Positions 31,399 through 64,000 of a stretch of DNA of 64,000 nucleotides are shown piece by piece; the stretch's first letter is position 1; each line of letters begins with the position of its first letter. The stretch is from IMG/VR virus record IMGVR_UViG_3300022697_000186, positions 109,091 to 173,090 of that record. The stretch is one strand, 5' to 3'. A model generated the notes under the pieces. It worked only from the letters and a program-made list of their open reading frames with translations. It was not told the DNA's origin and searched no databases. This stretch comes from a virus (lineage: Duplodnaviria; Heunggongvirae; Uroviricota; Caudoviricetes). Made by a program: the position numbers and the translations under genes.

Positions 31399-32022
31399 CT
31401 AATAGTTCTTTTTTTGTTGACACAACCTCATAAATTCAGCATTGATAGCTAAGTTATCTAAGAAAGAGCCTCGTATTTCAGATGTAATTGCAGACACTCC
31501 AGGTTCTTGTAAACCTCTAGCAATCATACAATTATGTCTACCTTCAACCCAAACACCAATACCTTCAGGTTTTATTTTATCAATAAAAATATCTGCTAAA
31601 TTTTTAGTAAATGTTTCCTGTAATATTGGCTGAGAACCATAAAGTTTAATAACTCTACCAACTTTAGATAGTCCTATGCATCTATCACTTGGAATATATC
31701 CTATTCTAACAGTATATTCTACATTTTCAAAATGATGAGGACATAGTGAATGAACTGTTACAGGTCCTACTACTATCATTCCTTTATATTCAGAAGGAAA
31801 ACTTTTACCTAATAAGTCCATACAGCGTTCTTTACTATTAATACCTTTACATCTTTCTAGTACTAAGGCCTTAGCATTACGTTTAGCTGTTTCTTTAAAG
31901 TTTTCATCTTCCTTCCAATTTAAACCATGTGCTAAATTTAATGCATTAAAAATCTGTTCCCAGGCACCTTCTACTATGGAAAGTGCCTGTTTAACATTAT
32001 CATCCAAATTATCTAAGTTCAT
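31399..32022 (-). CDS. folE: GTP cyclohydrolase I
   Basis: ETAKR, HSLCPHH, GLSK, LQE and HNCMIARG motifs. Confidence 0.92.
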   Translation of the reverse strand: MNLDNLDDNVKQALSIVEGAWEQIFNALNLAHGLNWKEDENFKETAKRNAKALVLERCKGINSKERCMDLLGKSFPSEYKGMIVVGPVTVHSLCPHHFENVEYTVRIGYIPSDRCIGLSKVGRVIKLYGSQPILQETFTKNLADIFIDKIKPEGIGVWVEGRHNCMIARGLQEPGVSAITSEIRGSFLDNLAINAEFMRLCQQKKNY

Positions 32023-35000
32023 TTAGTCAATTCCTCCGTTTCATTATCAATTACTTCTTCTTGTTCCTGTTCCTTTATAATAGGATTATCAGGATCAACT
32101 AAATTTAAGTTTAAGTTTTTTAAATATGCTTCTAGTAATCTCAATGATTGAGGACGTTTATCTAAGTTATCAGAAATTATAAGTTCTGGATTCTGTAATA
32201 TATCTGCTAGTAATTCATTTTTAAGTCCTGGACTGTCAGATTGTACTGTCAGAAAATCTTTAAGTAAATTCTTTGCACCATGTCCCATAGTTGCCCAAAC
32301 TTCCATTTCTCCTAATCTATGTCCACCCTGTTTAGATTTACCACCTAATGGTTGTAAAGTTTTTTTAGAATAAGGACCAATAGATCTAGCAGACATTTTA
32401 TCTGAAGCTCTGTGAACTAATTTTAAGAAGTATAGATAACCAACAGAAACAGGATTTTCTGATTCAACATTATTAGTAGAGTCAGTTATTGTATATTTAT
32501 AACTAGCTCCAGAAAATTTTATTGCTTTTTCTAATTCCTTAGGACCAATTGATTGGAACATGGGTTGTATTAAATAAAGTTCATCTATGTTGTTATTAGA
32601 AGATTTAAAATCTCCCAATATTTTGTTAGTAATCCAAGACTTATCACTCTTATCTACTATTTTTAAAAATTTAGTTAAATGTGATACTTGTTTAGCTTTA
32701 CTTAATGACTTTAATTTAATTTTTAAATGATATAGACATTCATTTAAATGTAATTCATATAATTGTCCTACATTCATACGAGAAATAATACCTAGTGGAT
32801 TTAAAATAAGATCTAATTTTCTACCATCAGCAAGAGAAGGCATTTCATCATCAGGATAAATTTTAGAAATAACACCTTTATTACCATGTCTATTTGCTAT
32901 TTTATCTCCTATACCTAATGTCTCTCTATAAACTGCTTGCATCTTAATATAAATACCACCAAATTTAGAACCTTTAAATGAATATTTACCTACTCTAGAT
33001 GCACAATCTAATTTTGATAAACCATTAACTATAATAAATTGATCAGCTTGTTCTTTGTTCATGTAAGTACGTAATTTATTATATAATGTTACATACTTAT
33101 CAGTTTGTCTAATAATTAAATGTTCAATAAATTCATTAAATTCAGTAACTCTTTTATTCCAAGAATTAGGATATATTTCTATGTCCGTTATTTCACAATC
33201 AGCAGGAGCATTAAGTTCATATGGTTCAATATTAATAGATTCAAATCCATCTTCACCATCAAGAGATTTAATTTTTGCAAATACATCTCCTTTTTTTAGA
33301 ACATGACCTATAGATGGTATTGGATTATAATCATCATTATTCAAACTAAGTAAAACTTGTCCAGGTTCAATTGTAAAAGTTAAGTCTACACTATGTATTG
33401 ATTCAAACTTTTTAGCCGTAGTTTCATTAAGTACTATACCGTCCTCATAATTATAACCTTTCCAAATAGAAATACCTGTACACAGATTTCTTCCAAATGA
33501 AGTTTCTCCATTATCAAGGCAACAAGACTCAGCTAAAATATCATCTTTCTTAAACTTTTCACCTTCTTTAAACTTAGGTAGGATATAATCAATAGTATTT
33601 AAATGTAAACTTTTCCAATATAATTTAAAAACTTCTGACTTTTTATTATTATATAAAACAATCATAAATTGATTATCTATATGAACAACAACACCAGAAT
33701 CTTTAGCAACATTTAAAAAAGTACTGTGTTCTAAATAACAATCTTCTGCTCCACTCTTAATAATAGGTTTCTCTCCCTCTGTTAAAAGTATAGCTTGTTT
33801 AAGTTGATTAGAAGCCATTTGTAATCTAATAGGATCATCATGTTCTAAAAAAGGAGTAAATGAAATGGGATATGATGTAACTACTTTATCATCAATCTCT
33901 CCAAAATCACCATTTTCTTCAATATTTATTGTTGGTACCATATTTGTAACAACACCACAACCATCTCTATCTGGAGTATCAGCAGTACATAGTCTTCCAA
34001 AATGTGAAGGATCTAAATTTCTTAAGTTAGCAGGAACGTTATCTTTCTTAAAACCACCAGGACCTGTAAGTGAACATTGCATTAATGATGCTATTTCTCC
34101 AACCGGATTAATAGGAAAATTAAAATGTACTATATCACTTACATTACAACTATCAGTTACTATAGTTTGGTTTATTTGAAACTTAACTTTCTTAGAAGAA
34201 TTTAATGTAATTAACATATCATATACTTTGCGCATTAAACTTGCTAAAATATATTCTTCAAATCTTATTCTTTTTAATTTTAAATCTGTATCAGATCTTG
34301 GTGTCTCATAAATTGCGTTTAACAATTCAAATAACATAGACTTAGTTTTACAAAATTCTCTAGAAAAGAAATCAACTTCAAATGCAGATTTTAATGAAAA
34401 TAAAACACTTTTACCTTTTTTAGTTTTATCTATATTTGGGGTTGCAAATATTTTTCCTAAACTTAGTATTCTTTCGTTTTGTGTTGTTTTATCCCATACA
34501 TCATTACATCTTTCTTCTATACCTGCTAACATTAATGATTCATTTGTTCTAGTAGATAAAAAATCTTTAAATTCTTCTTTAGTATGATATGTAGCTACTA
34601 GTAAATCTAAAGGTACAGTTTTATTGAATAAAGAAACTTTATAACCATCATCATTATTTTTATTTAATAAAATGGTTAAGGTAATTATATTATTATGAAA
34701 CTTTAATACTCCAGTTCTATAAATTATTGGATAATCATATATTTGAAATATAGGTACTTTTAAATTACCTCCAATATAAAAAAATTGTTCTTTTATAAGT
34801 TCTGGTATTTGTATATCATATACAAACTCTTTTTCATTTGGATCTTTAATAGTTATTTTAAGTATACTTAAAATATGTCTTTTCAATTCCTCTGACCTTT
34901 TTGTTTTAGCTGGAGGAGTCCAGTGACAATCTACAAATTTCCATCCTTCACAAAGTTCAATATTTTTAAATATTTTAGTTACATGATCTTTAACATTATC

Positions 35001-35060
35001 ATGTGTCCATTCTTTTACACGTTTATTTAATATCGTGTTATTATTAAATCTAGGATCCAT
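32019..35060 (-). CDS. rpoB: Phage multisubunit RNA polymerase, beta subunit
   Basis: SHFGRLC..DTPD, HDD..R.QMASNQ.KQA, GYNYEDGI, GDKIANRHGNKGVIS, SRMNVGQ and ARSIGPY...QP.GG...GG.RLGEME motifs. Confidence 0.96.
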   Translation of the reverse strand: MDPRFNNNTILNKRVKEWTHDNVKDHVTKIFKNIELCEGWKFVDCHWTPPAKTKRSEELKRHILSILKITIKDPNEKEFVYDIQIPELIKEQFFYIGGNLKVPIFQIYDYPIIYRTGVLKFHNNIITLTILLNKNNDDGYKVSLFNKTVPLDLLVATYHTKEEFKDFLSTRTNESLMLAGIEERCNDVWDKTTQNERILSLGKIFATPNIDKTKKGKSVLFSLKSAFEVDFFSREFCKTKSMLFELLNAIYETPRSDTDLKLKRIRFEEYILASLMRKVYDMLITLNSSKKVKFQINQTIVTDSCNVSDIVHFNFPINPVGEIASLMQCSLTGPGGFKKDNVPANLRNLDPSHFGRLCTADTPDRDGCGVVTNMVPTINIEENGDFGEIDDKVVTSYPISFTPFLEHDDPIRLQMASNQLKQAILLTEGEKPIIKSGAEDCYLEHSTFLNVAKDSGVVVHIDNQFMIVLYNNKKSEVFKLYWKSLHLNTIDYILPKFKEGEKFKKDDILAESCCLDNGETSFGRNLCTGISIWKGYNYEDGIVLNETTAKKFESIHSVDLTFTIEPGQVLLSLNNDDYNPIPSIGHVLKKGDVFAKIKSLDGEDGFESINIEPYELNAPADCEITDIEIYPNSWNKRVTEFNEFIEHLIIRQTDKYVTLYNKLRTYMNKEQADQFIIVNGLSKLDCASRVGKYSFKGSKFGGIYIKMQAVYRETLGIGDKIANRHGNKGVISKIYPDDEMPSLADGRKLDLILNPLGIISRMNVGQLYELHLNECLYHLKIKLKSLSKAKQVSHLTKFLKIVDKSDKSWITNKILGDFKSSNNNIDELYLIQPMFQSIGPKELEKAIKFSGASYKYTITDSTNNVESENPVSVGYLYFLKLVHRASDKMSARSIGPYSKKTLQPLGGKSKQGGHRLGEMEVWATMGHGAKNLLKDFLTVQSDSPGLKNELLADILQNPELIISDNLDKRPQSLRLLEAYLKNLNLNLVDPDNPIIKEQEQEEVIDNETEELTK

Positions 35061-35102
35061 TAAGTCCCCTTAATTAAAATTTTTAAAAACTTAAATTTCA
35101 TT

Positions 35103-37787
35103 TTAAAATCTAAATAAATCACTTATAGCAGAAGGTTCATCAGTTCTTGAATTAACTAAACCATCTAATAATTTTTGTTTTAAATTTGAAAACGCTAAAC
35201 CTATTAGCCATGAATTCTTTGATGGTATTTGTAAAATAGAAGTCCAAGTATATGGAGTTTCTTTTCTTAGTTCATGTAATCTCCAAGGAGTCTTACCAGC
35301 AAACATCATACAAGATACAATTATTTCGTAATGTATTAAATGTATACCTTTATATGGATTAAAAATTTCATAAATACATTTCACTAAATCAAATGGTCCA
35401 TTAATATTATCTAAACTTCCTGGTTTATGAAATATTGTATTAGCCATTCCAATCCCACTAATAATATCTTCTTGATCATCTGTTTGTGTACCACTAGCTG
35501 CTTGAGCAACTCCACCAAGATGAAAAGTTCTTAAAACTAATTGAGTAGTTCTTTCACCAACGGCTTGTGTTGCAATTATACCAACTTGATCTGAATGTAA
35601 TATCTTGTATAAATCTCCATAACATTTTTTACAGAGTTTTCTATCTTGACAATAAATAGGAGATCTTAATTTAACAGTTGTACCAACTATCGATTTATAA
35701 TTTTTACTAGTAATCTTTTCTATATGATTATCTTCTGCTATACGGTATCTCCACCATAATGTTCTAGCCATAGCTTCATCATCAACTTTAACCTCTAAAT
35801 AATCATCTGTACCACAATCATCATCTGTACCAAGTTCCATAGAAATTGTACTATATATTAATTTTCTAGTAAGATAACCAGAATCACCAGTTGATAATGC
35901 TGTATCTAATAATCCTTTACGAGATCCATAACAAGAATTAAAAAACTCTTCTTGATTTAATCCCTTAATTAAACTACTTCTAATTAAGTTAGGACGTATT
36001 TTACCACTAATATCAGATACATAACCTCTAGCTAAAACTATTTGTCTAACTTGATCCCAATTACCTCTTGCCCCAGAATCAACAAATTCAGCAAATGGAA
36101 ACTCTCTAAGTTTAACCATTACTTCATCACTATTCATTTTAGCTATATCTTCTTGTACATTACCAGTTAAGTCTGCGGATATTCCATCAAGTACATCAGA
36201 ATATAAATCATCTATACCTAAAGTATAGCCTTTTAATGTTGCATGTGTAAAACCTAAACTTTTTATTTTATCTAAAGTTTCCATAACAACATCAGGTGAA
36301 TAATGTAAAGCTACATCATTTAATAAATTCATTAATTCTTTATCTTTTAAAGGTTCATCTATTAATCTATAATCTTCAGGAAAACATTGATTAATTAAAT
36401 ATTTTCCAAATGGTAATTTCTTACCTTTAATTTCTTTTAAATTATCTTTGGAATCATTACTTGATAATGCATATATTCCTAAAATTATATCTAAATCAGG
36501 TCTAGGTACAATACTTATATCAGTAGGTGATACTAGGTTATTCCAAATACCTAATTTTTCTTTAGCATCTTTAATTCCTGCTTCAGTTGCTGGGAAATAA
36601 ATAGCCATAGCATCACCATCAAAATCTGCATTAAATGGTGAACATACCATAGGATGTATTTGTACAGTATTTCCTAAATGAGTACTAACTTTAAAGGCGA
36701 GAATTCCAAGTCTATGTAAAGTTGGCTGTCTGTTTAATATACAAACTTTATCAACACAAAATTCTTCAACTATATTAAATAATTGAGTATCTTTAGATTT
36801 AATACAATCTTCAATTAGTTTAACAGATTGATTGTATCTTTTACATACCCTTCTATTTACCAAGTATGCAGATAATTGAGGTTTAAGTATTTCTAAAATC
36901 ATCCAATAAGGAACTTTACATGTATCAATAGTTAAATTAGGATTAGGAGATATAACTGCTCTTCCACTAAAGTCAAGTCTCTTACCTAAAATATTTGATC
37001 TTATTAATCCTTTTTTCTTAGACATCTTCTTTAATATGTAATCATATAATTTAATTACTGTCTGTTGAATGTGTTTAAAGTTACTTCTATAAATTTCATT
37101 TGATTCATTGACTTGAAACTGTATACTTTTAACGTTATTAGATCTAATTAATATAGTAGAATATAATTGATTAATTTCATCAATAACTCTTATACCTGTA
37201 TTATTATTACCACATGGTCTAAAATCTGGTGGTATAACTATCACATTTGAAAAAGAAATTTTATCAAAATTATCTCTGATAAATTGAAATTCTTGTTTAT
37301 CACTATTCTCTATGAATTTTTCAATTATTGTAATAACACCTTTTAATCCTATAAGTCTCTCTGTACCTTCAATAGGTTTAATAGTATCTGTTTCTTTAGT
37401 AATTATATCATCAATATTATAAAAATAATGATTAGTATAATTTAACATATCATCTATTATTGTTTTTAATGTAGTTTTAGATGTAGTAATTATATAATAA
37501 AATATAGGATTCAGTATAGGAAATGGTAAAGTAATTTTAGCGTACCTTTTTCTACGTTCTTCTGAATTAGTTATATCTACATTGCATTCTGTACATTTTT
37601 TTGCAGTATTAGAACGTCCTCTATATGTTGCTCTATTACAAACACAATAATAAGATTTTACTGGACCAAAAATTTGTTGACTGAACAATCCATCTCTAGC
37701 AAATTTACCTGACTCAAAAATCTTAGGATTAATAACTTCAGGCATTTCTTTTGTGTATTGATCAACATTAAATATATCAAGATTCAT
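35103..37787 (-). CDS. rpoC: Phage multisubunit RNA polymerase, beta' subunit
   Basis: GLFSQQIFGP, N-terminal Zn finger, PPDFRP, LGKRLDFSGRAVI, LNRQPTLH, catalytic NADFDGD, SGYLTRKL and GERTTQLVLRTFH motifs. Confidence 0.97.
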   Translation of the reverse strand: MNLDIFNVDQYTKEMPEVINPKIFESGKFARDGLFSQQIFGPVKSYYCVCNRATYRGRSNTAKKCTECNVDITNSEERRKRYAKITLPFPILNPIFYYIITTSKTTLKTIIDDMLNYTNHYFYNIDDIITKETDTIKPIEGTERLIGLKGVITIIEKFIENSDKQEFQFIRDNFDKISFSNVIVIPPDFRPCGNNNTGIRVIDEINQLYSTILIRSNNVKSIQFQVNESNEIYRSNFKHIQQTVIKLYDYILKKMSKKKGLIRSNILGKRLDFSGRAVISPNPNLTIDTCKVPYWMILEILKPQLSAYLVNRRVCKRYNQSVKLIEDCIKSKDTQLFNIVEEFCVDKVCILNRQPTLHRLGILAFKVSTHLGNTVQIHPMVCSPFNADFDGDAMAIYFPATEAGIKDAKEKLGIWNNLVSPTDISIVPRPDLDIILGIYALSSNDSKDNLKEIKGKKLPFGKYLINQCFPEDYRLIDEPLKDKELMNLLNDVALHYSPDVVMETLDKIKSLGFTHATLKGYTLGIDDLYSDVLDGISADLTGNVQEDIAKMNSDEVMVKLREFPFAEFVDSGARGNWDQVRQIVLARGYVSDISGKIRPNLIRSSLIKGLNQEEFFNSCYGSRKGLLDTALSTGDSGYLTRKLIYSTISMELGTDDDCGTDDYLEVKVDDEAMARTLWWRYRIAEDNHIEKITSKNYKSIVGTTVKLRSPIYCQDRKLCKKCYGDLYKILHSDQVGIIATQAVGERTTQLVLRTFHLGGVAQAASGTQTDDQEDIISGIGMANTIFHKPGSLDNINGPFDLVKCIYEIFNPYKGIHLIHYEIIVSCMMFAGKTPWRLHELRKETPYTWTSILQIPSKNSWLIGLAFSNLKQKLLDGLVNSRTDEPSAISDLFRF

Positions 37788-58411: not shown

Positions 58412-58612
58412 TTAAACATTACTCTTATCTATAAATGCCGAAAGTATTCCAAATAATGTTGCTCCTGCTAAACCACCTATAATCATTTTAAAATAATCAA
58501 TGTACGTAAAATAGGAAACTATTGATACATATATTTTAAAACCTATAGTACTTGCAGCAAATATACAGATAATTATAGATAATCCTGTTAGTATTTTAAA
58601 TAAAACACTCAT
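58412..58612 (-). CDS. Small membrane protein
   Basis: Two hydrophobic helices. Confidence 0.55.
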   Translation of the reverse strand: MSVLFKILTGLSIIICIFAASTIGFKIYVSIVSYFTYIDYFKMIIGGLAGATLFGILSAFIDKSNV

Positions 58613-59937
58613 AATAAACTCCCATATTCATTAACACAAAAAGATTTCACATCTTTTAAATTATTTGTATATTCTTTAATTATTTTTTCAGTTTCTTTAA
58701 TGTCTAAACTTACACTCATAAGTTTTCTTATCTGATATTTTGAAACAATTTCTTTAATTATATCTATATTTATTTTAGTTAATTTAGATAATTCTAAACA
58801 CATTTTCTCTGGTGTATCTTTAATTTGTAAAACCTTGGATAAATGTGGTCTAATATTTTTGATAACATCATATTCCTTAATTTTATTTTTTAAATCACTT
58901 ATCTGATGTTTAAAATATACAGAAACAGTTTCTGTATAAAAATTAAAAGAATTTAATAACATTTGATCTACTGAATTTTCTTCTGTAATACCATTAGAAT
59001 TAACGGTTATAATACCGTATGTCAAACTATCTTCTAACGAAGTTTTAATTGCATCTAACATTTTATTATATATTTCTTCTTTGTTTCTTTGTTTCTGTAC
59101 TTCAAATCTAATTCTAGTACCATTTGATTTTGTAGATTGATCTATAAACCCTACATCACTATTACTAAGAATTTTATTTTTATCATGTCTATCTATTTTA
59201 TCTAACAATGTTTGAAACTTTGTTCTAGGACTCCAACCATTAATATAGATTCTCCAATTCTTTTTATCTTCAGTATATTTCCCTTGTATTTGTATTCTAC
59301 CATTACCTTTTTGTAATAACTGTTTTAGTTCTTTCTTTTTAGATGTAACTTTACAATTAATAATATTTGGTGCTGGTACATATTCTTTTTCCAATTCAAG
59401 TAAAAACATTAATCGTTTAATTAAATCAGTATACTTATAACATGGTATTTCAGTTTTATATCCAAATGCGATAGATGTCATTTCATATTTACCCATTAAA
59501 CAAAAAGGTATCATTGTAGGTAGTGTTAAAGGTTCAGGGTCAGCTTCAATTTCTTTCCACTCAACATGTTTAACATATTTAAAAGCTAATTCTTCTATTC
59601 TATTGTTAGCCTTTATTTTTGTATATCTAGGTGCAGCACAACCAATTGGTTCAGTTCCTATTTTAGAACCCCATGAGCCTCCACCATCTAAAAATTCATT
59701 TTGTACTGCCCATGATGCTGTACCTAAAGCTTCAGAGAATGGATGCCATCGTGCCATACACTCACCAAGAATCTTAGTTGTTTTAACATAAGACCCTTTA
59801 GCTATTGTATGAGCAGTAAGTAATATTCTTTTTTGTACAGGTAATAAACCATCAATACAATTAGGAAGCATTTTATTTTGATTTACATATCTGCCATAAT
59901 TACCGTATAACTGTGGTACTAATTTTTCCAAATACAT
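58609..59937 (-). CDS. Type IIA topoisomerase subunit A (T4 gp52/GyrA-ParC N-terminal-like, no CTD); probable start TTG 59931
   Basis: DGLLPVQKRIL, WHP, G.WGS, and catalytic AAPRYT motifs. Confidence 0.9.
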   Translation of the reverse strand: MYLEKLVPQLYGNYGRYVNQNKMLPNCIDGLLPVQKRILLTAHTIAKGSYVKTTKILGECMARWHPFSEALGTASWAVQNEFLDGGGSWGSKIGTEPIGCAAPRYTKIKANNRIEELAFKYVKHVEWKEIEADPEPLTLPTMIPFCLMGKYEMTSIAFGYKTEIPCYKYTDLIKRLMFLLELEKEYVPAPNIINCKVTSKKKELKQLLQKGNGRIQIQGKYTEDKKNWRIYINGWSPRTKFQTLLDKIDRHDKNKILSNSDVGFIDQSTKSNGTRIRFEVQKQRNKEEIYNKMLDAIKTSLEDSLTYGIITVNSNGITEENSVDQMLLNSFNFYTETVSVYFKHQISDLKNKIKEYDVIKNIRPHLSKVLQIKDTPEKMCLELSKLTKINIDIIKEIVSKYQIRKLMSVSLDIKETEKIIKEYTNNLKDVKSFCVNEYGSLL

Positions 59938-61675
59938 CTCCTTTGTTTAATTTGTAAATATAACTATAATTACCACAGTCCCAAATTCTATCGAATCCGT
60001 TTAGCTGCATATTTTGCCATTCAGTTAAAGTGGAATCAAATGATTCTAATAAGTTTTTTAATTTATGTTTTTGATAACCTATTCTGTTTTCTCTCTGATT
60101 ATTGTTAATATAGTAATAACTAGGATTTGTTAATTCTTTATATACAAAACCTGAATTAAGATACCCTTTACCTTCACCATATCTTGCATCAGCATATGTG
60201 ATAATAGAACTATTTGGGTTTAACTTTTTAAAGTAACTAAGAATTTTTGAAAGTCCACCAGTAATGGAATAATTTAATTTATTACAGAATCTGAGTATTT
60301 CATAATCATACTTCTTATTAAATCTAGATTTACCCATCGTAATCAGAGATATTAATTTCTCTTCGTAATATAAACCAATATGAATTCCGTTTATAGGTCC
60401 TTGTAAATGATTATCAAAAAGAAACTGTTTAGCTTCTTTGTTCTCAACCTTTTGTATTTGACATTTTCTAGCAAATATCTTATTAGGTGATTTACCCATT
60501 TTATTTAAAAGAATTGATTTCACTATATCTTTCTTGTTTAACCATTCATCCTCAAATATCTGTATTAAATGAATACCTTTAGATTTTGCAAGTAAAGTTT
60601 TGTCTTGGTGGTATTTAGGTTCTTTATTACCACCTATTTCACTGTGCCAATATAATCCGTTGTACTCAATTCCTAATTTTAACTCTTCAATATAGATGTC
60701 AATTTCTTTACCTTCTAAAATTTCTCTATCTGATTTAGATTCTGGGTAGTATTTCTGTATAAAAGATAGGACTTCTTGTTCCTCAATTGAGGTACCAGTT
60801 AGAGGAGGATAACAAATTGGACATCTGGGAATATCACCATGATTAATACCAGAATCAAATTCAGTTTCACATTTGTTACATTTCCAAAGATATTTTATTT
60901 CACCTACTTCATATTTATAAGTTCCTATATAATCTTCTAATTTAAATAAAGGTGTAACTAAATCTTTTAATCTGCTTGAATTTAATAAATTATCAAACCA
61001 TTTTTTTCTTTTCGATTTAATATTTTTTTCTTTAAATTTTTCTACTTGTGATGTATGTTCTACTCCATATCTTTTCAGACAAGTTTGTTTATATTTTTCT
61101 CGTATTTCTTTATTTTGAAAAACGTTTTCAACTCCATATCTATCTAAATTAGTTTTCTTTATTTTATCTTGAAATTTCTTTGTTTTGGAAGGATGTTCTG
61201 AACCATATTTTTCTAAACAGGTTTGTTTAGACTTCTCTTTAAATTCTTTAGTTTTAAAATAACTATTTATACCATATCTATCTAAACATGTCTTTATCTT
61301 TTTTTGTTTAATTTCATTTGAGTATGATACGTTATCTACACCATAATTCTCTAATAAAGTTTTCTTTATCTTTTCTTTTATGTCTTTATTTTGAAAAGTA
61401 TTCTCTGCCCCGTATCTATCTAAACAAGTTTTTTTATATTTACTTCTAGTTTCTTTATCATTTGCACTACACTTTGTAGAACAAAACTTACCATACCCTT
61501 TACTTAATGATATGAAAGTTGTTTCTTTTCCACATGTACAATACTTAATTTTTCCTAAGAATTTATTAAAATATTCTTTTCTATTTGGATGATATTTATT
61601 CTGGACGATATGACTAGTTAAACTTAATAAATTTTTAAATTGTCTATTACATATCATACATTTATACAAATACAT
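59900..61675 (-). CDS. Free-standing nuclease, copy 3 (six 23-aa repeats); probable start TTG 61669
   Basis: Same architecture as copy 2; its 3' end overlaps the topoisomerase start. Confidence 0.8.
   Translation of the reverse strand: MYLYKCMICNRQFKNLLSLTSHIVQNKYHPNRKEYFNKFLGKIKYCTCGKETTFISLSKGYGKFCSTKCSANDKETRSKYKKTCLDRYGAENTFQNKDIKEKIKKTLLENYGVDNVSYSNEIKQKKIKTCLDRYGINSYFKTKEFKEKSKQTCLEKYGSEHPSKTKKFQDKIKKTNLDRYGVENVFQNKEIREKYKQTCLKRYGVEHTSQVEKFKEKNIKSKRKKWFDNLLNSSRLKDLVTPLFKLEDYIGTYKYEVGEIKYLWKCNKCETEFDSGINHGDIPRCPICYPPLTGTSIEEQEVLSFIQKYYPESKSDREILEGKEIDIYIEELKLGIEYNGLYWHSEIGGNKEPKYHQDKTLLAKSKGIHLIQIFEDEWLNKKDIVKSILLNKMGKSPNKIFARKCQIQKVENKEAKQFLFDNHLQGPINGIHIGLYYEEKLISLITMGKSRFNKKYDYEILRFCNKLNYSITGGLSKILSYFKKLNPNSSIITYADARYGEGKGYLNSGFVYKELTNPSYYYINNNQRENRIGYQKHKLKNLLESFDSTLTEWQNMQLNGFDRIWDCGNYSYIYKLNKGDVFGKISTTVIR
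59929..59944 (-). repeat. 16-bp direct repeat, copy A (RBS and start of the topoisomerase gene)
   Basis: The + strand reads CAAATACATCTCCTTT, identical to 61667-61682. Confidence 0.9.
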
Positions 61676-61682
61676 CTCCTTT
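61667..61682 (-). repeat. 16-bp direct repeat, copy B (RBS and start of nuclease copy 3)
   Basis: The + strand reads CAAATACATCTCCTTT, identical to 59929-59944. Confidence 0.9.
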
Positions 61683-61713
61683 ATTTATATCTAACTGAAA
61701 AAGTTATCCTTGA

Positions 61714-62073
61714 TCATAGGAAAGATAAAAAGCATCCTCGTCTTTTTCTAGGTTTATATTTTCTTCTAGGTTTATATTTTTTAGGTTCTCTAGGATACTC
61801 AATATGTTCATCTAATTCCGGAAACATATGATTAAATAATTTTTTATTATTAATACTGTTTTTTCCAAATTCTCTACCAAAATTTCCATTTCGTAATCTT
61901 CTATCATATTTATGTAATAATTCAGAATAATTATAATAATTTATATTACCATAATATTTAGTAGTTGTTTCAAATCTATCTTTATGTTCTATATTCCATT
62001 TAATGTCAATATTAACAGGTACCATTCTTGGACTATCAGATGTAGATATAAGTTCTGTTATATTTAGATTCAT
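61714..62073 (-). CDS. Hypothetical protein with a basic repetitive tail
   Basis: An 18-nt tandem repeat (61746-61780) encodes KKYKPRRKYKPR; weak paralog of 62073-62399. Confidence 0.6.
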   Translation of the reverse strand: MNLNITELISTSDSPRMVPVNIDIKWNIEHKDRFETTTKYYGNINYYNYSELLHKYDRRLRNGNFGREFGKNSINNKKLFNHMFPELDEHIEYPREPKKYKPRRKYKPRKRRGCFLSFL

Positions 62074-62399
62074 TATTTATATCTCCTTTTTCTTGACATT
62101 GTTCTCTCTCTTATTGGAATTATATCATGACCTAATTCATCAAATAATTTATTAAATCTTTTTTTATTAATCTTAATATATTCTCCGTATTTTTGACTAA
62201 AATCAGACAGTAATGTACCATAACATGATTTAGCCATCTCATGAAATTTATCATCAACATTCCATCTATACTTTCCTTGGTCAGCATTAACTAAATCACT
62301 TGAAAACTTAATCTGATAATTTATTTTAAATTTTATATTATCCCATTTAATATCTAAACAGTAATCATATTCATTGACTAATAACCTCATAATCTCCAT
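62073..62399 (-). CDS. Hypothetical protein, weak paralog of 61714-62073
   Basis: LDIKW...INKKRFNKLFDEL versus IDIKW...INNKKLFNHMFPEL. Confidence 0.6.
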   Translation of the reverse strand: MEIMRLLVNEYDYCLDIKWDNIKFKINYQIKFSSDLVNADQGKYRWNVDDKFHEMAKSCYGTLLSDFSQKYGEYIKINKKRFNKLFDELGHDIIPIRERTMSRKRRYK

Positions 62400-64000
62400 T
62401 CATATTTATAGTTGCCACAATCCCAAATTCTATCAAATCCATTTAGCTGCATATTTTGCCATTCAGTTAAAGTAGAATCAAACACTTCTAATAGTTTGTC
62501 CAGTTTATACTTTTGATATTTCATTCTTGATTCCCTACTATTATTTTCTAAATAAAAATAGTTAGGATTAGTAAGTTCTTTAAACTTAAATCCACAAGAT
62601 TCATATCCCTTACCTTCACCATACCTGGCATCAGCATAAGTAATAATAGAACTATTTGGATTTAACTTTTTAAAATGCTTTAATAATTTAGATAGACCAC
62701 CTGTAACTGAGGTGTTTAATTTGTTACAAAACCTTAAAATCTCGTAATCAATTGACTTATTAAATCTTGATTTACCCATCGTAATCATAGAAACTAATTC
62801 AGATTCAAAATAAAGACCTATATGAATTCCATTAATTTCAGATTGTAAGTGATTATCAAATAGAAATTGTTTAGCTTCTTTGTTTTCTACAGATTTAATT
62901 ATACACTTTCTAGCGTATATTTTAACAGGTGATTTACTCATTTTATTTAAAATGATACTCTTAACTATATCCTGTTTATTAAACCATTCATCCTCAAATA
63001 TCTGTATTAACTGAATACCTTTTTCTTTAGCTAGTAAAGTTTTATTCTGATGATATCTAGGTTCTTTATTTCCTGCAAGCTCAGAGTGCCAATATAATCC
63101 GTTGTATTCAACTCCCAATTTGATTTCTGGTATATAGATGTCAATATGTTTACCATCTAAAATAGTTCTATTTGGATTTTCTACATTTGGATAGTATTGT
63201 TTTACAAATTCTAATACTTCTTGTTCCGCTTGAGATGTACCAGATACTAATTTAGGATAACAAGTAGGACACCTTGGTATTTTACCATTGTTTATATTAT
63301 CTTCGAATTCAGTTTTACATTTAGTACATTTCCAAGAATATATAGAATAATTTAATGTACCTTTATATTCTTTACTGTTAAATGAAGGAGTAACTAAATC
63401 TTTTAATCTATCTGAATTTAGTAGTTTATTATAAAAGATTTTTCTATTAGTTTCTGATGTTTTATGTGATATAAATTTTGATTTTCCAATACAATCTACA
63501 CCATATCTATCTAAACATGTTTGTTTAGTTTTTTCTTTTATAACTTCTAATTTCATTGGGTTATCTACACCATAATTCTTTAGAAATGTCTTTTTAGATT
63601 TTTCTGCAAAATCATTCATTTGACTAGGATTTTCTACACCATATCTTTTTAACCATGTTTGCTTTGATTTGGATTTCATTATTTTTGATTGTGTTGAATA
63701 TTCTACATTATATCTTTCTAAACAAGTTTGTTTTTTCTTATTATTAGATTCTTCTGATTTAGAATTATGTTCAACACCATATTTAATTAACATTGTTTTC
63801 TTTTGTTTTTCTCTTGTAATTGGATTTTTTGTAGAACAACTATAAGAACAATGTTTTTGATATCCTAATCCTAATCCTATAAATTTATTATCTTTTTTAC
63901 AAACTAAACATTTATTTGCATTATTTTTTAATAAAAATTTATCAAAATAATATTTAGTATTTACATTATGAACTTTAGAGATATGTGATGATAATCCTAG
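62387..64000 (-). CDS. Free-standing nuclease, copy 4 (five 23-aa repeats), 5'-truncated by the window edge
   Basis: The frame is open from 64000 (LGLSSHISKVH...CLVC...YQKHCSYSC); same architecture as copies 2 and 3. Confidence 0.8.
   Translation of the reverse strand, partial: LGLSSHISKVHNVNTKYYFDKFLLKNNANKCLVCKKDNKFIGLGLGYQKHCSYSCSTKNPITREKQKKTMLIKYGVEHNSKSEESNNKKKQTCLERYNVEYSTQSKIMKSKSKQTWLKRYGVENPSQMNDFAEKSKKTFLKNYGVDNPMKLEVIKEKTKQTCLDRYGVDCIGKSKFISHKTSETNRKIFYNKLLNSDRLKDLVTPSFNSKEYKGTLNYSIYSWKCTKCKTEFEDNINNGKIPRCPTCYPKLVSGTSQAEQEVLEFVKQYYPNVENPNRTILDGKHIDIYIPEIKLGVEYNGLYWHSELAGNKEPRYHQNKTLLAKEKGIQLIQIFEDEWFNKQDIVKSIILNKMSKSPVKIYARKCIIKSVENKEAKQFLFDNHLQSEINGIHIGLYFESELVSMITMGKSRFNKSIDYEILRFCNKLNTSVTGGLSKLLKHFKKLNPNSSIITYADARYGEGKGYESCGFKFKELTNPNYFYLENNSRESRMKYQKYKLDKLLEVFDSTLTEWQNMQLNGFDRIWDCGNYKYEWRL

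What the first reader, a model, noticed from the sequence alone, without database searches (positions are those of the whole stretch)
59929..61682. Nuclease copy 3 is flanked by a duplication of the topoisomerase RBS and start codon
Seen: the - strand sequence AAAGGAGATGTATTTG (16 bp exact; 21 bp with one mismatch, TAAAYAAAGGAGATGTATTTG) occurs both at the nuclease start (61667-61682) and at the topoisomerase start (59929-59944). With normal RBS spacing the true starts are the terminal TTG, so the repeat ends exactly at the start codon. Inference: this is a target-site-duplication-like scar. The element inserted at the translation start of an essential gene, took over its initiation signal and restored a copy downstream. 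That resembles integration more than classical homing by gene conversion.
Basis: partly seen in the sequence, partly recalled or inferred. Interest (0 to 1): 0.78.

Follow-up and report, generated by a model that had tools for sequence, protein, structure and literature searches.

The report
Selfish nuclease borrowing a gene start
A selfish DNA-cutting gene in a large uncultured phage sits between two copies of the topoisomerase gene's start signal, which is a real insertion scar but an occasional one for a known kind of mobile gene, not evidence of a new integration system.

Summary
The repeat is real: 16 bp exact, 21 bp with one mismatch, 1,738 bp apart. It holds the RBS and TTG start of both the nuclease and the gyrA-like gene, and homologues confirm both TTG starts. 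The nuclease, a Hef-like Vsr-fold enzyme with a Mom-like domain, has no start or stop of its own. It starts in the upstream copy and stops 32 nt inside gyrA. The scar reading is supported; a dedicated integration mechanism is not. The other 11 copies in this genome lack such a repeat. About 3% of family members elsewhere have one, 21-47 bp long, at either gene end and sometimes diverged. No tyrosine integrase or reverse transcriptase was found. Most likely: an illegitimate break-repair join left the resident gene start in front of an incoming homing endonuclease, and selection fixed the endpoints. T4 MobA/HomR and fungal atp6/atp9 elements are precedents, and this scan noted the same layout in other genomes. 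No empty-site relative was found, so the key test is open. Unexplained: a third copy inside an RNA polymerase beta gene matches the gyrA start at 28 of 30 bases.

The parts
61667..61687 (-). Upstream repeat copy: RBS (AAGGAG), 6-nt spacer and TTG; serves as the nuclease start
59900..61669 (-). Hef-like free-standing endonuclease, 589 aa from TTG: zinc fingers, DUF7487 repeats, Vsr-like PD-(D/E)xK core, Mom-like GNAT domain. No stop of its own; ends 32 nt inside gyrA in another frame
59945..61666 (-). Segment between the two exact repeats (nuclease codon 2 to just past the terminal WDCG motif); inferred inserted body
   Evidence: boundaries inferred, no empty site
59929..59949 (-). Downstream repeat copy: RBS and TTG of the gyrA-like gene, inside the nuclease 3' end
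58609..59931 (-). Type IIA topoisomerase GyrA/ParC-like (gp52-like) subunit, 440 aa from TTG, intact
61714..62399 (-). Two small ORFs (119 and about 106 aa) with no homologue found, in the variable gyrB-gyrA interval
62387..64000 (-). Another family copy (551 aa, starts 42 nt beyond the window, directly after the gyrB-like stop); no flanking repeat
33269..33298 (-). Third copy inside an RNA polymerase beta coding region (KKGDVFAKI); 28 of 30 identical to the gyrA start; unexplained

Best explanation
The repeat is the scar of the founding, non-homologous insertion of a free-standing Hef/Vsr-type homing endonuclease gene at the gyrA start. Shown: the gene body lies between two copies of the gyrA initiation region, starts at the TTG of the upstream copy and has no stop before the downstream copy. 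Inferred: a break at or near the first gyrA codons was repaired with nuclease DNA, and at least the upstream join was illegitimate, leaving the resident RBS and TTG fused in frame to nuclease codon 2. The downstream copy either arrived with the element (one-sided homing from a donor whose nuclease already carried the gyrA start in its 3' end; about 0.4) or was re-copied from the target by template switching (about 0.3). The repeat ends at the start codon because only joins that leave gyrA an RBS and give the nuclease one in frame are both viable and mobile. Later spread would be ordinary homing.
For: Longest start-anchored suffix in the genome. Copy 3 has the longest tail after WDCG, 23 aa against 6-14. 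An independent case in a related virus has an exact 27-bp RBS+ATG+4-codon duplication of a baseplate wedge start (L008). Further cases have diverged copies or the other gene end: L102 (41 bp, gene start), L034 (primase 3' end), L352 (3' end with stop). A relative has a degenerate family gene reading through the gyrA start in the same frame offset (L173). The wedge start is occupied in three related viruses, with a duplication in only one. The gyrB-gyrA gap ranges from 4 bp to 2.9 kb in relatives, so upstream homology is often absent. Family assignment. Precedent: MobA carries a homologous replacement segment in Topo2L (bioRxiv 10.1101/2022.08.31.505936).
Against: No empty allele was found, so the junction is untested. 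Enrichment over control genes is weak: 2 of 68 against 1 of 425 (Fisher p 0.05, and one of the two is the discovery case), and 5 of 164 against 4 of 298. One mismatch in 21 bp cannot separate the two sub-routes. The model does not explain the rpoB match. Nuclease activity and target are not shown.
Confidence: 0.7

Rival explanations
1. Dedicated integration or transposition: the element inserts at gene starts and makes a target-site duplication each time.
For: Direct repeats at both ends. Twelve copies at unrelated sites form one clade with two copies from a close relative, which fits spread within a lineage (quick tree, SH-aLRT 100).
Against: Eleven of 12 copies lack the repeat. Family cases vary in length, sequence and gene end. 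No PF00589 or PF00078 match in the genome. The protein has no recombinase domain. The clade could also reflect gene conversion among copies (C-terminal DNA mostly 70-90% alike).
Confidence: 0.08
2. Later local recombination: the nuclease was already upstream of gyrA, and a duplication-deletion or short conversion later replaced its own start with the gyrA initiation region.
For: L173 shows a family gene upstream of gyrA with the same read-through. Other genes in this genome are flanked by long RBS-bearing repeats.
Against: Needs two steps, and does not explain the L008 remnant of five unused codons or the displaced gene ends in L034 and L352.
Confidence: 0.1
3. Chance convergence of two strong RBS-TTG strings in an AT-rich genome.
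For: AAGGAGAT occurs 24 times. The rpoB copy shows that a better match can exist with no visible cause. Twenty-six other local exact repeats of 16 bp or more exist.
Against: One pair in 47,586 reaches 16 nt and it is an adjacent pair. None of 76 gyrA relatives has an upstream repeat over 12 bp across its start. L008 repeats the layout independently.
Confidence: 0.07
4. The string itself came from the rpoB coding region, captured as a repair patch that gave gyrA a new RBS and TTG, or it marks a look-alike cleavage site of a family nuclease.
For: 28 of 30 match; rank 4 of 309 starts and best among those not paired with a neighbouring repeat. No other site within 6 mismatches. The rpoB peptide is native and conserved. 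Most relatives start gyrA with ATG (61 of 77).
Against: Noticed after the fact; my rough Gumbel estimate is 3e-4 per start, about 0.1 genome-wide. Relatives share no such string. No nuclease copy is next to this rpoB. It does not by itself explain the duplication.
Confidence: 0.12

Closest known systems
Hef-type / EDxHD (Vsr-like) homing endonucleases: phage U5 Hef, Campylobacter phage Hef, I-Bth0305I (PDB 3r3p; PMC3239194)
   Same: Vsr-like core (3r3p is the only PDB sequence hit, E 0.0016); 34% identity over 89% of the length to a protein annotated Hef; free-standing beside conserved genes.
   Different: I-Bth0305I is intron-encoded, leaves 2-nt overhangs and lacks the Mom-like domain; copy 3 borrows both start and stop.
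T4 MobA element in the topoisomerase large subunit (bioRxiv 10.1101/2022.08.31.505936)
   Same: Homing endonuclease in a topoisomerase II locus that carries a homologous replacement segment (HomR) so that the host gene survives.
   Different: HNH enzyme; inserts mid-gene, deletes 55-75 nt and needs a ribosomal bypass. Here gyrA is intact and both copies are kept.
Fungal mitochondrial free-standing endonucleases with duplicated atp9, atp6, cox or rps3 ends (PMC7487136, PMC4019555)
   Same: Endonuclease flanked by a duplicated gene terminus, including N-terminal atp9 duplicates.
   Different: GIY-YIG or LAGLIDADG enzymes, organellar, mostly longer coding duplications.
Mom-REase fusions of jumbo phages (PMC7824862)
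   Same: Same domain pairing; the best fold match of the C-terminal domain is Mu Mom, 8bv8, E 7.9e-7.
   Different: Read there as a restriction-modification pair; flanks and mobility not discussed in the passages found.
Insertion sequences and integrative elements with target-site duplication
   Same: Direct repeat of host sequence at both ends.
   Different: No transposase or integrase domain, and no constant duplication length across copies.

Membership tests
Hef-type / Vsr-like free-standing homing endonuclease | Vsr-like PD-(D/E)xK core with catalytic residues | tested here: met
   E299, D326, E337, H344 invariant in 14 copies; D326, E337, H344 invariant in 118; 3r3p hit
Hef-type / Vsr-like free-standing homing endonuclease | Near full-length homology to annotated Hef proteins | tested here: met
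   34% over 89% of the length, Campylobacter phage IBB_35 Hef; PHROG 3339 E 7e-139
Hef-type / Vsr-like free-standing homing endonuclease | Intact ORF between genes, next to a conserved gene | tested here: met
Hef-type / Vsr-like free-standing homing endonuclease | Optional at the site in close relatives | tested here: inconclusive
   Absent upstream of gyrA in nearly all of 76 distant relatives; nearest gyrA is only 55-57% identical
Hef-type / Vsr-like free-standing homing endonuclease | Site-specific cleavage of the empty allele and biased inheritance | not testable with these tools
   needs enzyme assay or co-infection
Insertion sequence / integrative element | Transposase, integrase or reverse transcriptase | tested here: not met
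   none in the protein; no PF00589 or PF00078 in the genome. Serine recombinases and DDE transposases in trans were not searched
Insertion sequence / integrative element | Duplication of constant length at most copies | tested here: not met
   1 of 12 in this genome; 5 of 164 in the family, 21-47 bp
MobA/gene 60-type bypass cassette | Host reading frame interrupted, needing a bypass or frameshift | tested here: not met
   gyrA is continuous from TTG 59931 and matches relatives over its full length
Mom-family DNA acyltransferase | Mom-like GNAT fold | tested here: met
   model pLDDT 95; best match 8bv8
Mom-family DNA acyltransferase | Adenine modification activity | not testable with these tools
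   needs assay

The most novel reading that the evidence does not exclude
Hef-Mom elements colonise new sites within their own genome by cutting near gene termini and being repaired in by template switching, with no integrase. This makes variable duplications of the start or end of the target gene, from which the bare reading frame borrows its start and stop, and which later decay. The rpoB match would then mark the cleavage consensus or a captured repair patch.
Probability: 0.2. Interest if true: 0.65.

Novelty: new member of a known kind. Interest (0 to 1): 0.3.

Why it matters
How free-standing homing endonucleases first reach a new site is rarely visible, because the scar decays. This copy keeps it at single-base resolution and, with L008, L102, L034 and L352, gives a small set of junctions that predict where these enzymes cut. 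It shows how an element can sit at the start of an essential gene without splicing. It does not need a new integration chemistry.

Tried and rejected
Empty-site search failed. No sequencing run was listed. No viral contig matched the gyrA junction string. The two upstream small ORFs have no homologue. The contig of the closest relative (P0102, P0106) was not on record. An empty site was also not seen for the CP81 case (the 40 records listed all match the occupied region) or for L352. The CP81 33-bp repeat resembles a promoter-like motif seen beside other copies, so I give it little weight. L366, L301, L065, L047 and L016 repeats come from tandem nuclease copies and were set aside. Promoter and terminator scans were at background. 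ATG starts seven bases upstream were rejected: zero RBS spacing and no match to homologue starts. Misassembly was considered unlikely: the exact repeat is 16 bp and all three proteins continue normally across it. The Hef paper (PMC1275590) and two Mom papers were not held, so claims on U5 Hef rest on PMC2988022 and PMC3239194. The tree is the quick version, midpoint-rooted, without P0143 and without a one-clade test.

Full report
Observation. The 16-mer is exact at 59929-59944 and 61667-61682 on the minus strand, 1,738 bp apart. It extends to 21 bp with one mismatch and to 25 of 28 across codons 2-3. Among 309 predicted genes, a 16-nt shared suffix ending at the start codon is the longest of 47,586 pairs, and the next is 14. 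It is therefore not a common RBS string. Two cautions: 26 other exact repeats of 16 bp or more lie within 0.2-4 kb in this genome, and a third exact copy lies at 33278-33293.

Starts. GyrA homologues mostly begin at the Met of MEKL.P, which is the TTG at 59931. Of 77 distinct starts, 61 are ATG, 9 GTG and 7 TTG. The nuclease paralogues begin M-[FIV]-[KE]-C, which places the start at TTG 61669. Each TTG lies 6 nt after AAGGAG. The nuclease has no stop before the second repeat. It runs 23 residues past its terminal motif, against 6-14 in the other copies, and stops 32 nt inside gyrA.

Setting. The genome is a 236-kb, 27% GC virus record, 69% complete by CheckV. Gene order is gyrB-like, nuclease (551 aa), two small ORFs with no homologue, nuclease copy 3, gyrA-like. 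In relatives the gyrB-gyrA gap runs from 4 bp to 2.9 kb and holds zero to three genes in the four annotated cases. None of 76 relatives has an upstream repeat over 12 bp across its gyrA start. One, L173, has a degenerate family gene that carries the gyrA RBS in its 3' end and reads through the start with the same frame offset.

The protein. It has DUF7487 repeats, zinc fingers, a Vsr-like core and a Mom-like domain. The only PDB sequence match is I-Bth0305I, the prototype of the EDxHD family, to which Hef enzymes were assigned (PMC3239194). It aligns over 89% of its length to a Campylobacter phage protein annotated Hef. The model of the C-terminal part (pLDDT 95) best matches Mu Mom, the fusion noted for jumbo phages in PMC7824862. 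Activity is not shown.

Is the duplication a rule? No. The genome has 12 copies and only copy 3 has such flanks; one other shares 10 bp across the two starts. Eight copies start within -4 to +13 nt of the upstream stop, as several T4 endonucleases do (PMC2988022). Among 164 non-tandem full-length members, 5 have a flanking duplication of host sequence once two tandem remnants are set aside, against 4 of 298 control genes. The start-anchored test gives 2 of 68 against 1 of 425, p 0.05. The enrichment is weak, but the cases are informative. L008 has an exact 27-bp copy of the RBS, ATG and four codons of a baseplate wedge gene. L102, a shorter relative, begins with a diverged 41-bp copy of the next gene's start. 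L034 has a diverged copy of the primase 3' end after the nuclease. L352 ends in a copy of the upstream gene's last codons and stop. The wedge start is occupied in this genome, L008 and L073, with a duplication only in L008. Lengths, sequences and sides all vary. No tyrosine integrase or reverse transcriptase was found.

Spread. All 12 copies group with two copies from one close relative, apart from copies of other viruses (quick tree). This fits spread within a lineage or gene conversion among copies; I cannot separate these.

Mechanism (inferred). A break near the first gyrA codons was repaired with nuclease DNA. The upstream join had no homology to use and left the resident RBS and TTG in frame with nuclease codon 2. 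The downstream copy came with the element or was re-copied from the target. L173, the wedge sites and the diverged copies in L102 and L034 favour the first route; one mismatch in 21 bp cannot decide it here. Selection explains the endpoint: gyrA must keep an RBS and the nuclease must gain one. Confidence 0.7 overall. Precedents are the MobA element, which carries a homologous replacement of the topoisomerase segment it displaces (bioRxiv 10.1101/2022.08.31.505936), and fungal mitochondrial endonucleases flanked by duplicated gene ends (PMC7487136, PMC4019555). Unchecked notes of this scan report the same layout in other genomes.

Unexplained. The third copy lies in an intact RNA polymerase beta gene whose peptide at that place is conserved in relatives. 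It matches the gyrA start at 28 of 30, better than the nuclease-side copy does. It ranks 4th of 309 starts for best match elsewhere in the genome, and the three above it pair with nearby repeats. No other site is within 6 mismatches. My rough estimate is 3e-4 for this start and about 0.1 for some start in the genome. Relatives do not share the string. It may be coincidence, a captured repair patch or a cleavage look-alike. It also warns that improbable matches occur here.

Limits.

Verdict. Real scar, known kind of element, integration reading not supported. New member of a known kind; interest 0.3.

Noticed in passing
window 33269-33298 (-): RNA polymerase beta coding segment matches the gyrA start at 28 of 30 bases; no other site in the genome within 6 mismatches except the nuclease start.
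   Followed up: partly
window 59971-59979 and 59910-59918 (-): A 9-bp perfect inverted repeat between the nuclease's terminal DCG codons and gyrA codons 4-7 could close a stem around the gyrA RBS and TTG (z -4.2, -2.8); the other 11 copies lack it.
   Followed up: partly
L008 4424-4476: The upstream repeat opens a 12-codon mini-ORF whose stop overlaps the nuclease ATG, suggesting translational coupling.
   Followed up: no
L016 2818-6173: Two tandem nucleases and the sequence after them all begin with MNLW-like codons, as if each copy took the start of the next.
   Followed up: no
L034 2686-2765 and 4505-4590: Diverged copy of the last 25 or so primase codons downstream of the nuclease.
   Followed up: partly
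G000 genome 27855-29010 and 25458-27710 (outside window): Non-nuclease genes flanked by 54-bp and 34+29-bp direct repeats; the 54-bp one includes the RBS.
   Followed up: no
window 61679-61689 (-): A TATAAATA box (T4 late-promoter consensus, from memory) overlaps the upstream repeat; such strings are common at 27% GC.
   Followed up: no
window 32019-37787 and G000 genome 177552-187924: The genome appears to carry two sets of multisubunit RNA polymerase genes; nuclease copies lie beside the second set, as in L328.
   Followed up: no
L173 3-730: Degenerate, frameshifted family gene directly upstream of gyrA with the same read-through layout; contig too short to see its 5' end.
   Followed up: partly
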